Position numbers: made by a program | Virus record (IMG/VR): IMGVR_UViG_2698536428_000020 | Source: a virus | Lineage: Duplodnaviria; Heunggongvirae; Uroviricota; Caudoviricetes | Direction: 5' to 3' (one strand) | Length of the DNA: 39,678 bases | Shown here: piece after piece, positions 30,001-33,000 of the stretch | Numbering within the stretch: position 1 is the stretch's first letter | Layout of the letters: each line of letters starts with the position of its first letter

Positions 30001-33000
30001 CCAACACTCCATGATGGTGATGTGGTGGGGGTAAACACGCAAGATACGAGCATCAGGGATGGTAAAACATATGCAATTTGCCAAGCTGATTTGTTAAGGG
30101 TAAAAACGCTAATAGCCACACCAACATCGGTAATTATCAGATCGATAAACCGCGAAGAGTATCCTGATGAAGTAATGAACAGAGAAGAATTCTACAAAAA
30201 CGTAAAAATCATAGGACGAGTGTTCTGGTCATCACATAGCTGGTAATCAGACTCCAACTGAACTTTTGCTATAAGAACACTCACGAAGAACGGCCTTTTA
30301 TTGTGCTCAATACCACCGATGGTAAACCATTCGCCAAGTAGCCAATTCATAAAATGCCATTTCTAAATCCCCCGGCTCCAGTGCCGGGTTTTATTTACTT
30401 AATTACACAGTCGCATATCCTGAAGTAACACATCTATAGCTAACTTCACAGCGAGATCATCCAATTCATCATGGTGAAGCACTCGGATCATTCCCGCAAT
30501 AGCATCTGCTGAAATAGCTTCCCCAGTAGCAATAACCTCAAGCAACGACACCCCTAGAATTTCGACTACCCGCTGGTGCAACACACCAAATTCCCCTTCG
30601 ATTAACATGCAATCACCCATAACAATCAGCCTTTCCCCCTTGAAAATATCACGCGGATACCACAAAAAATAAAATATTTTTGTTATCAGCCATTTATAAC
30701 GTTTTCCATAAAATGATAAATATAGTTATTGCACAATCAGATAACTTAGGTTATCTTCAATTCAACAGCAGGACGCTGGAAGCCAAACGGAACAGATTGG
30801 CAGGCTCTTTAACATTGATGGACTCTCAACCTAACCGTTGAGACCAAAATCTAAGTGGTTTTGGGGATGACGCGAATTTCAGTTGCAAGGCCGCGATCGA
30901 GAAGAAAAACACCTCGACGCGTCATACACCAAAGCCACTTAAAGGAGACCATCATGGTAACCATAATCTGGAAAGAATCCAAAGGTACGGCAAAAAGCCG
31001 CTATAAAGCTCGCAGGGAAGAACTTATTGCAGAGCGGCGCAGTAGTGAAAGACTGACGCGGAAGATTGCGCTAAAGATCTCTGGTTGCGTCAGAGCAGAC
31101 AAAGCAGCATCACTCGGCAGCCTTCGCAACAAGAAGGCAGAAGAAGTCGAGCGCAAAAACAGAAGTACTTATTACAAGGATTCAAACCCATTAGGAAACA
31201 AAATACATGCAGTTCAAAAAATAAAATTGTACAGTAAACCACCGTATGGACTTATTGAGTATGCTTATGGTGAAAAAGACTATTTATGTTAATCCTAATC
31301 GCGGACAAAACAGAAAAGTATCTGATAGAAGCCTTACATCTCGAGACAGAAGGAGGATAGCGAGATGGGAAAAGAGAATAGCATATGCATTAGAAAACGG
31401 TATAACACCTGGATTTAATGCTATAGATGACGGTCCGGAATATAAGATTAATGAAGACCCAATGGACAAAGTTGACAAAGCATTAGCAACACCATTTCCT
31501 CGAGATGTTGAAAAAATTAAAGATGAAAAATATGAGGATATAATGCACAGAGTTGTTAACCACGCTCACCAACGAAATCCAAATAAAAAATGGTCATAAC
31601 CCACTTCGGTAGATTTTATTGTTTGGACTAACAAAATTTACTACCGCAAGCCACGCAGTGAAACGGGTGTGACTTGTGTTGGTCGCCAGAAAATAAAATT
31701 AGGCAGCAAACCACTTATTTGAAGTGAGATATGGAAGAAGAATTTGAAGAGTTCGAAGAGCATCCACAGGATGTGATGGAACAATACCAGGACTATCCGG
31801 ATGACTACGACTATTGATACAAATCAATGGTGTGGGCAATACGAACTACGGCCATGATTGCCAGAGAACTTAGCAAACAGAAAAACAAGGCTGCCTGATG
31901 GTGGCCTTTATTTTTGGCATAAACAAATCAGTAAAAAAAAGCGAGGTGATTGATGACCACGCCTTCAGTTTTGCCGCAAAAATTATGGCGTCCGCTTGCA
32001 GAGATTAAAAACTTCGTTGAAAAAATGCCTGACGGCGTTCGCCTTACGGAAGTTACTAAAAAAGTTAAGACATTTGCCGAACTGTCAGGAAAGGAGAGAA
32101 ACCAGCTCATAGATTTTATCGATAAACGGGAAAGCATCATTGTATTTAAGGTCAGAAAAGAAGGTTCTGGTAACGGAGTAACCTTTTTCCGCCACAAAAA
32201 ATATGGATATCCCAAGCGGGAAGGAAACGTCACAATCATTAAGGACCTTCAATCAAAATTATGTACCAGATGCGGGCAGACAAAATCAGTCGATGATTTT
32301 TATTCAGATGCCAGCAAACGTGACGGGAGAGCCATTTATTGCAAGAAGTGCGAATCTGCGATGAAACGCTCACGCAGAGAATGCAACAAATTAATTCTGC
32401 AACAACAGGAACCTGAAATGAATAACCTAAAAGCAGTTTCACCTTCACCAGAAATACTCAGAAAGCAGGCGGAAGAATTGCTGAAAGCCGCCGAAATTGC
32501 GGAGAAAAAACGCCAGGAAGATGATGTATTCAACAAAAAACTTGCGCCCTTAAAACTTGAAATTCTTCAGGCCGCCGGAAAAATGCAGCTTAAACTGGAC
32601 GAATTCATCGACTGTATGGATGAAATGAATAAAGCAGTTCAGAAGCTTAAAGAGCTGACCGCCTGATATTAATAAATTGCAACTACCGGAGTTAACTATG
32701 AACGAAACAGAACTGAAGCACATTATCGCCCTGCTTCTGGAAGATGCCAGACAGGTTTATCGACTTAGCCCAAACTCCGCAACGCAGGAACGCATCCGGA
32801 TGGCAGAAAAAGCTCTGAAACAGGAGAGTGAAAATAACATATCCGAAGTTAGCGCGAATGGTGAAAATGAAGCAATAGAAATAAACAGCAATATCAGCAA
32901 CGGCGTAATAGCTTCATCCCACAAGACAATTCTCATGGGCGCACGACTTCTGGAGGTGATTACGAGTGAGCTTGAAAAGAACGGTATCAAGCCCACCCCT

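What the first reader, a model, noticed from the sequence alone, without database searches (positions are those of the whole stretch)
30804..31722. Tandem N genes: an intact N followed by a second N-like ORF broken by an in-frame stop, with a duplicated N 3' end
The first ORF (30954..31292) has an arginine-rich N-terminus and an N-like C-terminus. The overlapping downstream ORF (31246..31599) again carries an ARM-like motif (SRDRRRIARWEKR), and after a single TAA the same frame encodes ...YYRKPRSETGVTCVGRQKIKLGSKPLI, strikingly like the lambda N C-terminus. The DNA at 31200..31260 and 31670..31730 is visibly related. This looks like a recombination scar joining two N specificity types, or a stop-interrupted second antiterminator (pseudogene or readthrough product).
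Basis: partly seen in the sequence, partly recalled or inferred. Interest (0 to 1): 0.6.

Follow-up and report, generated by a model that had tools for sequence, protein, structure and literature searches.

The report
N gene carrying a nun cassette
The "second N gene" is the known phage-exclusion gene nun, sitting inside the 3' end of a phage-21-type N antiterminator gene and leaving the old N tail behind as an untranslated relic; this layout is common and largely ordinary.

Summary
Window 30804-31722 is the start of the pL operon of an E. coli lambdoid prophage. It reads: phage-21-type nutL, an N gene (30954-31292), a full-length HK022-type nun gene (31267-31599), then 28 codons plus stop (31636-31722) that are about 95% identical to the 3' end of phage 21 N.

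Phage 21 N equals the window's left part joined directly to that relic. So a cassette of about 465 bp sits at N codon ~70. Its 5' arm is a second, old N C-terminal allele (YYKDSNPLGNKIHAVQKIKLYSK). That arm now finishes the N reading frame and also holds the annotated nun promoter.

ORF2 is not an N pseudogene. Its TAA is nun's normal stop. It is 94% identical to the solved Nun protein, with ARM, His98, Lys106/107 and Trp108 intact.

The "same frame" link to the relic comes from a 2-nt deletion peculiar to this lineage. In 54 of 62 related loci the relic is out of frame.

N+nun+relic occurs in about 211 of 5426 complete E. coli genomes and in annotated phages (mEp235, mEpX1, PA28, Stx1a phages). 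The likely function is constitutive Nun that excludes phages with lambda-type nut sites, while the resident phage's own nut sites are spared.

The parts
30804..30843 (+). nutL: boxA (GCTCTTTAAC, 30804-30813) and a phage-21-type boxB hairpin (TCTCAAC-CTAACC-GTTGAGA, 30824-30843)
   Evidence: Sequence read. boxA found by pattern search. boxB is identical to that of imm21 phage DE3 in alignment A1. mEp235 and mEpX1 records annotate a nut boxA at the homologous place.
30954..31292 (+). N antiterminator gene (112 aa). Residues 1 to ~70 are phage-21 type; the C-terminus is encoded by the 5' arm of the nun cassette.
   Evidence: PHROG 271 'N-like', E 1e-30. ARM matches the phage 21 N peptide in PDB 1NYB at 21 of 22 residues. 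76% identity to phage 21 N over 97 aa, E 3e-46, with divergence starting after ERK.
31142..31266 (+). 5' arm of the nun cassette ('copy1'): a diverged N 3' end (…RSTYYKDSNPLGNKIHAVQKIKLYSKPP…). It is also present upstream of nun in HK022 and HK75, which have putL and no N.
   Evidence: HK022, O276 and HK75 homology starts at query position 339 = window 31142 (alignments). It is always linked to nun: 218 of 220 E. coli genomes that match 31142-31599 cover at least 80% of it. The same peptide allele occurs in a nun-less lambda-type N (L092), with 10 synonymous and 2 non-synonymous codon differences.
31207..31235 (+). P_Nun promoter by homology: -35 ATGCAG (31207-31212), 17-nt spacer, -10 TACAGT (31230-31235), inside the N coding sequence
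   Evidence: Mapped from the features 'nun gene promoter -35/-10 sequence' in phage O276 (MH547045) through alignment A2. Both hexamers are identical in the window, mEp235, HK022 and the divergent L090. The generic sigma-70 consensus scan does not detect it.
31267..31599 (+). nun (110 codons plus TAA): HK022-type transcription arrest and exclusion factor. In-frame upstream ATGs lie at 31246 and 31261.
   Evidence: PDB 6ALG chain N, E 2e-68, about 94% identity over 109 residues. ARM (SRDRRRIARWEKRIAYAL) matches the Nun peptide of 1HJI. The tail ...HRVVNHAHQRNPNKKWS is conserved. PHROG 5632, E 2e-69.
31600..31621 (+). Degenerate remnant of the nun intrinsic terminator (CCCAC-TTCG-GTAGA-TTTTATT)
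   Evidence: The mEp235 version CCCAC-TTCG-GTGGG-T6 folds at -10.3 kcal/mol. HK022 CCCGC..GCGGG (compensatory change) folds at -11.8. The window version folds at -2.1, no better than shuffles. The terminator scan finds none here.
31636..31722 (+). Relic of the original phage-21-type N 3' end (IYYRKPRSETGVTCVGRQKIKLGSKPLI*), displaced downstream of nun. No start codon or ribosome-binding site of its own was identified.
   Evidence: Aligns without gaps to DE3 (imm21) N from codon 72 onward, and homology continues into downstream orf28 and ral up to 31840. PHROG 271, E 1e-10. The junction is the same in 62 related loci.
29156..29195 (-). nutR: boxA (29195-29186) and a phage-21-type boxB (TCACC-TCTAACA-GGGTGA, 29173-29156). 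It shows that the phage's own N/nut system is not lambda type.
   Evidence: No lambda-type boxB within 2 mismatches anywhere in the window.

Best explanation
This is the beginning of the leftward early (pL) operon of a lambdoid E. coli prophage whose antitermination system is phage-21 type (nutL, nutR, N ARM).

A nun 'moron' of about 465 bp (a promoter-gene-terminator cassette) is nested in the 3' end of N at about codon 70. The cassette consists of three parts. First, a 5' arm that is an old, divergent N C-terminal allele; it now completes the N reading frame and contains the constitutive promoter P_Nun. Second, the nun gene. Third, a small intrinsic terminator, mutated in this lineage.

The original phage-21-type N 3' end was pushed downstream. 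It survives as an untranslated relic, contiguous with the shared downstream genes (orf28, ral).

Inferred function: in the lysogen, P_Nun makes Nun while pL is repressed. Nun's ARM binds lambda-type boxB RNA on a superinfecting phage, and its C-terminal tail (His98, Lys106/107, Trp108) arrests RNA polymerase, which excludes phages with lambda or 434 nut sites. The resident phage escapes because its boxB hairpins and N ARM are phage-21 type.

Inferred history: one ancient insertion or duplication event created the N-nun-relic layout. Homologous recombination in the N body (left) and in or beyond the relic (right) has since shuffled it among N alleles and into putL phages such as HK022.
For: Shown by tools.
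- Identity of nun and conservation of its functional residues.
- Phage-21 N ARM and nut sites; no lambda boxB in the window.
- Phage 21 (DE3) N equals the window's left part plus the relic, with the cassette between them.
- HK022, O276 and HK75 share exactly the 31142-31605/31620 segment behind putL.
- The annotated P_Nun hexamers are conserved in the window and in a lineage whose Nun is only 67% identical.
- The terminator hairpin is intact in mEp235, changed compensatorily in HK022, and lost here.
- The copy1 peptide allele is under protein-level constraint and also exists in a nun-less N.
- In 69 IMG/VR loci, 57 have phage-21-ARM N + nun + relic, 3 have another or a cut N + relic, and 5 have putL with a full-length nun, 2 of them with the relic.
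- Relic alleles are identical to the 3' ends of intact nun-less N genes of UTI89 and TOE17.
- A divergent lineage (L090, L091) has the same layout with an internally deleted relic.
- 211 of 5426 complete E. coli genomes carry at least 80% of the region.

From the literature: Nun excludes lambda and lambda imm434, which share nut sites, by ARM-boxB binding and C-terminal arrest of RNA polymerase (PMC4124055, PMC5386594). Viable phages (mEp235, mEpX1, Kapi1, PA28, Stx1a phages) have this chimeric N as their only N ORF.
Against: - Nothing here is a functional test. P_Nun activity, Nun expression and lambda exclusion by this prophage are inferred from 90-94% sequence identity to HK022.
- The window's N has an 11-residue longer tail than the majority type (a 1-nt deletion at ~31243), and its activity is untested.
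- The generic sigma-70 scan does not call P_Nun.
- The relic frame is open in all relic-bearing loci for which a translation was obtained (58), with no stop or frameshift. That is more tidy than simple neutral decay predicts. I explain it by recombinational refreshment from intact N genes, which is inferred, not demonstrated.
- The order of events (N-nun ancestral and HK022 derived, or the reverse) is not resolved.
Confidence: 0.88

Rival explanations
1. One reading: ORF2 is a second N-type antiterminator interrupted by an in-frame stop. It is either a pseudogene or is expressed as an ORF2-relic fusion by stop-codon readthrough.
For: In the window, the relic lies in the same frame as ORF2 after a single TAA, and the 12-codon spacer has no further stop. 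ORF2 carries an arginine-rich motif.
Against: ORF2 is full-length Nun ending at its natural stop and shows no similarity to the window's N (E = 20). The in-frame state results from a 2-nt deletion specific to this lineage. In 54 of 62 loci the spacer is 38 nt (out of frame). By my own manual frame reading (not a tool result), the 0 frame and the relic's frame of the majority type each meet a stop before the relic. The two loci with a 39-nt spacer have a stop in the spacer. TAA is an efficient stop codon in E. coli (established knowledge).
Confidence: 0.02
2. The relic is kept because it is useful, either as a right-hand homology arm or as a cis element or small peptide. As a homology arm it would pair with the conserved N body on the left, letting the nun cassette transfer by homologous recombination into any N gene of this family. 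As a cis element or peptide it would be needed for the downstream genes.
For: The relic is present in 62 of the 69 IMG/VR loci fetched with Nun, with an identical left junction. Its N frame is uninterrupted in all 58 loci for which a translation was obtained, and it comes in at least two N-allele types (…KMKLGSKPLI, …KQRGKSIPAYYD). It is also retained in two putL phages that have no N. The left boundary of cassette-type sequence differs between the window (GAGCG) and mEp235 (GTTCG), as expected from crossovers in the N body.
Against: Relic alleles are simply those of intact N genes, so their 'conservation' can be hitch-hiking through recombination with downstream shared DNA. The relic has been lost (HK022, HK75, L072, HCM-22C-2) or internally deleted (L090, L091) without loss of nun. 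No start codon or ribosome-binding site was identified.
Confidence: 0.12
3. The cassette is an autonomous site-specific mobile element (an intron or homing-type insertion) that has entered N genes independently many times at the same site.
For: The right junction is the same in different N-allele backgrounds, and the insert sits inside a conserved gene with the target's 3' end restored by the element.
Against: There is no recombinase, endonuclease or intron. Rfam finds nothing in 30600-32000 even at E up to 1, and the only ORF is nun. The cassette sits behind putL with no N 5' part in HK022. The left boundary varies, as for homologous crossovers. N frame 3 and relic frame 1 would not be joined by any recognised splice.
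Confidence: 0.03
4. The insertion inactivated N. The substituted C-terminus is non-functional and the prophage is antitermination-defective.
For: The C-terminal 45 residues differ strongly from phage 21 and lambda N (the C.GR motif is lost). The window lineage adds an 11-residue frameshifted tail. The Pfam N_peptide score (18.1) is below the gathering cut-off of 27.9.
Against: The YYKDSNP[LF]GNKIHAVQK allele shows 10 synonymous and 2 non-synonymous codon differences against a nun-less N. Plaque-forming or inducible phages (mEp235, mEpX1, Kapi1, PA28, Stx1a phages) have only this N. The motifs ERK..YY and QKIKL.SKP are retained.
Confidence: 0.05

Closest known systems
Nun of coliphage HK022 (transcription arrest / lambda exclusion factor; PDB 6ALG, 1HJI)
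   Same: About 94% identical over the whole 109-residue mature protein. The ARM is identical, and His98, Lys106/107 and Trp108 are conserved. It occupies the same position just downstream of pL. The same upstream segment carries the annotated P_Nun hexamers, and the same type of downstream hairpin terminator occurs in close relatives.
   Different: HK022 has putL RNA and no N gene upstream of nun; here nun follows, and overlaps by 26 nt, a complete phage-21-type N gene. The terminator hairpin is mutated here. A relic N 3' end follows nun here, whereas HK022 has IS903 there.
N antiterminator of phage 21 (imm21; as in phage DE3; ARM-boxB complex PDB 1NYB)
   Same: ARM matches at 21 of 22 residues, nutL boxB is identical, nutR is phage-21 type, and the central region is conserved.
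   Different: From about residue 68 the C-terminus is replaced by the nun-linked allele (YYKDSNPLGNKIHAVQKIKLYSKPP…) and is 13 residues longer. The phage-21-type C-terminal codons are displaced 470 bp downstream and are not part of the ORF.
N + Nun gene pairs annotated in phages mEp235, mEpX1, PA28 (RefSeq) and present in Kapi1 and Stx1a-converting phages
   Same: Same gene order, same junctions and same relic, at 91-98.7% DNA identity over 30804-31722.
   Different: In mEp235-type phages N is 101 aa and stops just before nun, the terminator is intact and the relic is out of frame with nun. The window, PA28 and Stx1a lineage has a 1-nt deletion (N 112 aa, overlapping nun) and a 2-nt deletion plus two substitutions in the terminator.
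Morons of lambdoid phages (promoter-gene-terminator cassettes expressed from the repressed prophage; concept from HK97/HK022 comparative genomics, from my own knowledge)
   Same: Own promoter, a single accessory gene and its own terminator (in relatives). It is present or absent between otherwise homologous genomes (absent in phage 21/DE3) and benefits the lysogen.
   Different: It is nested within a coding gene rather than between genes, and its promoter-bearing arm doubles as the coding sequence for the host gene's C-terminus.

Membership tests
HK022 Nun family | Full-length sequence homology to Nun | tested here: met
   PDB 6ALG chain N, E 2e-68, residues 2-110 aligned to 1-109. PHROG 5632, E 2e-69, over the full profile.
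HK022 Nun family | N-terminal arginine-rich motif that binds lambda boxB | tested here: met
   The window's SRDRRRIARWEKRIAYAL is identical to HK022's. It matches the Nun peptide crystallised with boxB (1HJI chain B), E 1.3e-9. RNA binding itself was not tested.
HK022 Nun family | C-terminal arrest residues His98, Lys106/Lys107, Trp108 | tested here: met
   …VVNHAHQRNPNKKWS is identical to HK022's. The importance of these residues is described in PMC5386594.
HK022 Nun family | Expression from a constitutive prophage promoter, and exclusion of lambda but not imm21 phages | not testable with these tools
   The P_Nun hexamers annotated in O276 are conserved at 31207-31212 and 31230-31235. Activity and phenotype need experiments.
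Lambdoid N antiterminators (phage 21 specificity) | N-terminal ARM of phage 21 type | tested here: met
   1NYB chain A, 21 of 22 residues identical, E 6.6e-6.
Lambdoid N antiterminators (phage 21 specificity) | Cognate nut sites (boxA plus a phage-21-type boxB) downstream of pL and pR | tested here: met
   nutL 30804-30843, identical to DE3's boxB. nutR 29195-29156 on the minus strand.
Lambdoid N antiterminators (phage 21 specificity) | Family profile match | tested here: inconclusive
   PHROG 271, E 1e-30, but Pfam PF25694 N_peptide scores 18.1 bits, below the gathering score of 27.9.
Lambdoid N antiterminators (phage 21 specificity) | Functional C-terminal region (the RNA-polymerase-contacting region in lambda N, from established knowledge) | tested here: inconclusive
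   A variant allele. It retains ERK..YY and QKIKL.SKP and shows 10 synonymous versus 2 non-synonymous codon differences against a nun-less N. Activity is untested.
Moron (autonomous promoter-gene-terminator cassette) | Own promoter upstream of the gene | tested here: met
   By homology to the annotated P_Nun. The generic consensus scan is negative.
Moron (autonomous promoter-gene-terminator cassette) | Own terminator downstream of the gene | tested here: not met
   The window hairpin is destroyed (-2.1 kcal/mol, z = 0.55). It is intact in mEp235 (-10.3) and HK022 (-11.8). The next terminator-like site is at 31887-31908.
Moron (autonomous promoter-gene-terminator cassette) | Presence/absence polymorphism between otherwise collinear phages | tested here: met
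   Absent from DE3/imm21, UTI89 and TOE17 N regions; present here.
Programmed stop-codon readthrough / recoding | Frame and open spacer conserved among relatives | tested here: not met
   Spacer is 38 nt in 54 loci, 36 nt in 6 and 39 nt (with a stop) in 2 of 62.
Self-splicing intron / homing element | Recognisable intron RNA or homing endonuclease | tested here: not met
   No Rfam match at E up to 1 in 30600-32000. The only ORF is nun.

The most novel reading that the evidence does not exclude
The nun cassette is a 'homology-armed' portable exclusion module. The N body and variant N tail lie on its left and the relic N tail on its right, so it could be copied by ordinary homologous recombination into any N gene of the phage 21/lambda family without destroying N. 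The relic would then persist because it is the right-hand arm. In addition, nun belongs to a wider, undescribed set of pL-operon proteins that share the Nun arrest tail but carry other ARMs. One of these is a clear tandem paralogue of its upstream, N-position neighbour (L080). That would mean Nun-type factors arise repeatedly from N duplication and target different nut specificities.
Probability: 0.3. Interest if true: 0.5.

Novelty: already known. Interest (0 to 1): 0.27.

Why it matters
It corrects a tempting misreading: this is not a broken second antiterminator and not a recoding signal. The locus is a known exclusion gene in a known slot.

Three modest points may interest phage biologists.
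1. In the sampled data most nun genes sit next to a functional-looking N gene. At least 58 of 69 IMG/VR loci do (a further 3 have a partial N match), and about 211 complete E. coli genomes carry the N-nun-relic region. That differs from the textbook putL, no-N context of HK022.
2. The nun promoter lies inside codons for the N C-terminus, in a duplicated N tail that diverged.
3. The duplicated tail records how the cassette entered N and may help it spread.

For annotation, the source genome and many others label both genes 'hypothetical protein'. They can be named N and Nun.

Tried and rejected
- Group I/II intron or other structured RNA in 30600-32000: no Rfam hit even at E up to 1.
- N and ORF2 as detectable paralogues within the window: BLASTP E = 20.
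- Generic sigma-70 promoter scan to find P_Nun independently: nothing was called in 30600-31950. The promoter placement therefore rests on the O276 annotation and on conservation.
- Frameshift rescue of a Nun-relic fusion in the majority type: by manual frame reading (not a tool result), the 0 frame and the relic's frame (-1 relative to nun, equivalently +2) each meet a stop before the relic.
- Literature on N+nun tandems or an N remnant near nun: six full-text searches found nothing relevant. The papers most likely to mention it are not held: Oberto et al. 1989 (J Mol Biol 207:675), King et al. 2000 (J Bacteriol 182:456; look-up failed), Juhala et al. 2000, and the Casjens & Hendrix review. 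Prior description therefore cannot be excluded.
- Protein search with the variant N tail returned only 5 clusters. It was useful (P0003, P0005) but too sparse for a phylogeny.
- The scan of species-representative genomes found only 4 loci (Shimwellia, an Escherichia sp., a doubtful MAG, and a 42%-identical Proteus locus). The family appears nearly confined to Escherichia-type lambdoid phages.
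Full report
**What is in the sequence.** On the + strand the window reads as the leftward early operon of a lambdoid prophage.
- A cI-type repressor gene lies at 29539-30246.
- A boxA (30804-30813) and a 7-bp-stem hairpin (30824-30843) follow.
- An ORF of 112 aa lies at 30954-31292.
- An overlapping ORF of 117 aa lies at 31246-31599.
- After one TAA, 40 further sense codons in the same frame end at 31722.

The region is 100% identical to the chromosome of E. coli 2014C-3338, where both ORFs are annotated 'hypothetical protein'. 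It is 98.7% identical to phage PA28 and a series of Stx1a-converting phages, and about 91% identical to phages mEp235, mEpX1 and Kapi1.

**Observation check.**
- The two N-tail-like stretches are related beyond chance. The peptide alignment score of 42 is reached by 12 of 20000 shuffles.
- DNA 31215-31242 matches 31687-31714 at 23 of 28 positions, a score reached by 0 of 5000 shuffles.
- The claim that the second ORF is N-like does not hold. BLASTP of ORF1 against ORF2 gives E = 20.

**Identity of the parts.**
- ORF1 is an N antiterminator (PHROG 271, E 1e-30).
- Its arginine-rich motif matches the phage 21 N peptide of PDB 1NYB at 21 of 22 residues.
- It is 76% identical to phage 21 N (the imm21 N of phage DE3), with divergence beginning after …EEVERK.
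- nutL boxB is identical to that of DE3.
- nutR, on the other strand (29195-29156), is also phage-21 type.
- No lambda-type boxB occurs in the window within two mismatches.
- ORF2 is Nun, the HK022 transcription arrest factor. PHROG 5632 gives E 2e-69. PDB 6ALG chain N gives E 2e-68, about 94% identity over all 109 residues, with the ARM and the tail …VVNHAHQRNPNKKWS unchanged.
- The solved protein begins VKKTIYV, so the start is the ATG at 31267. The TAA at 31597 is nun's normal stop.

**The architecture.** DE3 N DNA aligns with window 30780 to ~31176 and again, without gaps, from 31636 (N codon 72, I-Y-Y…) through the N stop at 31722. It continues into the shared downstream genes up to 31840. 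Phage 21 N is therefore the window's left part joined directly to the post-stop stretch, and about 465 bp are inserted at about codon 70.

HK022, its hybrid O276 and HK75 have putL RNA and no N gene. They share exactly the segment 31142 to ~31605/31620. The inserted cassette therefore has three parts: a 125-bp 5' arm, nun, and a short 3' tail.

The 5' arm is itself an N 3' end of a different allele (…RSTYYKDSNPLGNKIHAVQKIKLYSKPP…). In the window it is fused in frame to the phage-21-type N body and supplies the C-terminus of the only complete N ORF.

**The 5' arm is a real N allele, not decayed DNA.** A search with this tail found an N with a third kind of N-terminus, again followed by nun (P0003; loci L090 and L091). 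It also found a lambda-type N (lambda nutL boxB upstream) with …WYKDSNPFGNKIHAVQKSRGKSTPLI* and no nun downstream (P0005; locus L092). Over 17 codons, the window and L092 differ at 10 codons synonymously and at 2 non-synonymously. That indicates selection on the peptide. Within 5426 complete E. coli genomes the arm never occurs without nun: 218 of 220 matches to 31142-31599 cover at least 80% of it.

**Promoter and terminator.** The O276 record annotates the nun promoter -35 and -10 hexamers. Through alignment these map to window 31207-31212 (ATGCAG) and 31230-31235 (TACAGT), inside the codons H-A-V-Q-K-I-K-L-Y-S of N. Both hexamers are unchanged in mEp235, in HK022 and in L090, whose Nun is only 67% identical. 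The nun-less N alleles have other bases there. The generic consensus scan does not call this promoter, so its placement rests on the annotation and on conservation.

Directly after nun, mEp235 has the hairpin CCCAC-TTCG-GTGGG followed by T6 (-10.3 kcal/mol). HK022 has CCCGC…GCGGG, a compensatory change (-11.8). The window has GTAGA and a T-run two bases shorter, folding at -2.1, no better than shuffles. As I recall (the paper is not held), King et al. 2000 showed that P_Nun is constitutive in the lysogen and that its transcripts should end just after nun. In this lineage they would more likely run on to the terminator-like site at 31887-31908.

**The relic and the readthrough idea.** I fetched 77 IMG/VR loci with Nun and classified the 69 with a close nun.

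| Context upstream and downstream of nun | Loci |
|---|---|
| Phage-21-ARM N + nun + relic | 57 |
| Another or a truncated N + nun + relic | 3 |
| putL + full-length nun | 5 (2 keep the relic) |
| N + nun, no relic | 1 |
| Partial or divergent nun (one each behind phage-21-ARM N, putL and a cut upstream end) | 3 |

The left edge of the relic is the same everywhere. The spacer between the nun stop and the relic varies as follows.

| Spacer length | Loci (of 62) | Relation to the nun frame |
|---|---|---|
| 38 nt | 54 | Out of frame |
| 36 nt | 6 (the window's lineage) | In frame, spacer open |
| 39 nt | 2 | In frame, but a stop in the spacer |

The two bases missing in the window's lineage are the same deletion that shortens the terminator's T-run. 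The frame coincidence is therefore a lineage-specific by-product, which removes the support for readthrough.

The relic's N frame is nevertheless uninterrupted in all 58 loci for which a translation was obtained. It comes in at least two allele types, and these are identical to the tails of intact, nun-less N genes of UTI89 and TOE17. I read this as refreshment by recombination with other phages, because the relic is contiguous with widely shared downstream DNA. The relic is dispensable: HK022, HK75, L072 and HCM-22C-2 lack it, and L090 and L091 carry an internally deleted version.

**How it most likely works.**
- Shown: the parts, their identities and their conservation.
- Inferred from HK022 biology (PMC4124055, PMC5386594): in the repressed prophage P_Nun yields a low level of Nun. 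On superinfection by a phage with lambda-type nut sites, Nun's ARM binds boxB RNA, competing with lambda N, and its C-terminal tail wedges into RNA polymerase and arrests it.
- Inferred: the resident phage is immune to its own Nun because its boxB hairpins and N ARM are phage-21 type. [quoted passage not shown]
- Inferred: during lytic growth nun is simply co-transcribed with N from pL.
- Inferred: the chimeric N is presumed active, because plaque-forming or inducible phages carry only this form.

**History (inferred).** One old event placed nun together with a second N tail at N codon ~70. The layout predates the divergence of Nun to 67% identity (L090). The left boundary of cassette-type sequence differs between the window and mEp235 (GAGCG versus GTTCG at …EEV-E/V-R…), as expected from later crossovers in the N body. 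HK022-type phages look like derivatives in which nutL and the N 5' part were replaced by putL, leaving the N-tail arm, probably because it holds P_Nun. The reverse order cannot be excluded.

**Comparison with what is known, and novelty.** Nun, phage 21 N, P_Nun and the moron concept are all established. N+Nun pairs are already annotated in mEp235, mEpX1 and RefSeq PA28. I found no open paper that discusses the pair, the nested position or the relic, but the key older papers are not held. I rate the finding as already known in kind, with a small evolutionary footnote. It is a useful correction of annotation and of the impression that nun replaces N.

**Side observation.** Proteins with the Nun arrest tail but other N-termini occur in the same genomic slot.
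- L078 has an N (PHROG 271) followed by a Nun-tail protein with a different ARM.
- L080 has two adjacent ORFs whose first 36 residues are 58% identical (E 7e-10), and only the second ends in the Nun tail.
- L083 has a 293-aa PHROG 12139 protein ending in …NPVNHAHQRNPNKKWS.

Noticed in passing
L078 1655-2276; L080 1541-2129; L075 1995-2330 (IMG/VR loci): Nun-tail proteins (…RVVNHAHQRNPNKKW) with ARMs unlike HK022 Nun sit directly after an N-like ORF. In L080 the two adjacent ORFs share 58% identity over their first 36 residues (E 7e-10), which makes them tandem paralogues. L075 is a 57%-identical Nun behind putL. This suggests a family of arrest factors with other nut specificities.
   Followed up: partly
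L083 1272-2153; L082 2016-2141 (IMG/VR loci): A 293-aa protein (PHROG 12139, unknown function) with an unrelated body ends in …NNPVNHAHQRNPNKKWS. Its last ~46 nt are 91-93% identical to the nun 3' end. In L082 the gene is cut by an IS1-like insertion. It lies just upstream of the ea10-like gene in the pL operon.
   Followed up: partly
window 31801-31898: ral (restriction alleviation) is a pseudogene. MTTTIDTNQWCGQ… and …WAIRTTAMIARELSKQKNKAA* are in different frames, with an internal deletion relative to the 66-aa DE3 Ral. PGAP annotates only a 23-aa 'Ral family' fragment.
   Followed up: partly
window 31243-31244 and 31612-31617: Two small lineage-specific deletions are shared with PA28 and the Stx1a phages. 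A 1-nt deletion extends N from 101 to 112 aa, so that it overlaps nun by 26 nt, and creates an extra in-frame ATG (31246) ahead of nun. A 2-nt deletion plus two substitutions destroys the nun terminator.
   Followed up: yes
window 30399-30665 (- strand): An 88-aa ORF (PHROG 3946, unknown function) lies between the repressor gene and pL, on the strand opposite to both. This is the slot where lambda carries rexAB. A homologue is annotated in the TOE17 prophage.
   Followed up: no
window 31950-32666: A 238-aa pL-operon protein (PHROG 2539, unknown function) has a central Cys-rich segment that also matches endonuclease VII / HNH / Lar-like PHROGs (E 1e-6 to 1e-10). In TOE17 only its C-terminal 61 aa remain as an ORF.
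   Followed up: no
L066, L068 (IMG/VR loci), about 2372-2459: Two putL (HK022-type, N-less) phages still carry the phage-21-type N 3' relic after nun. This shows that the relic travels with the cassette independently of an N gene.
   Followed up: partly
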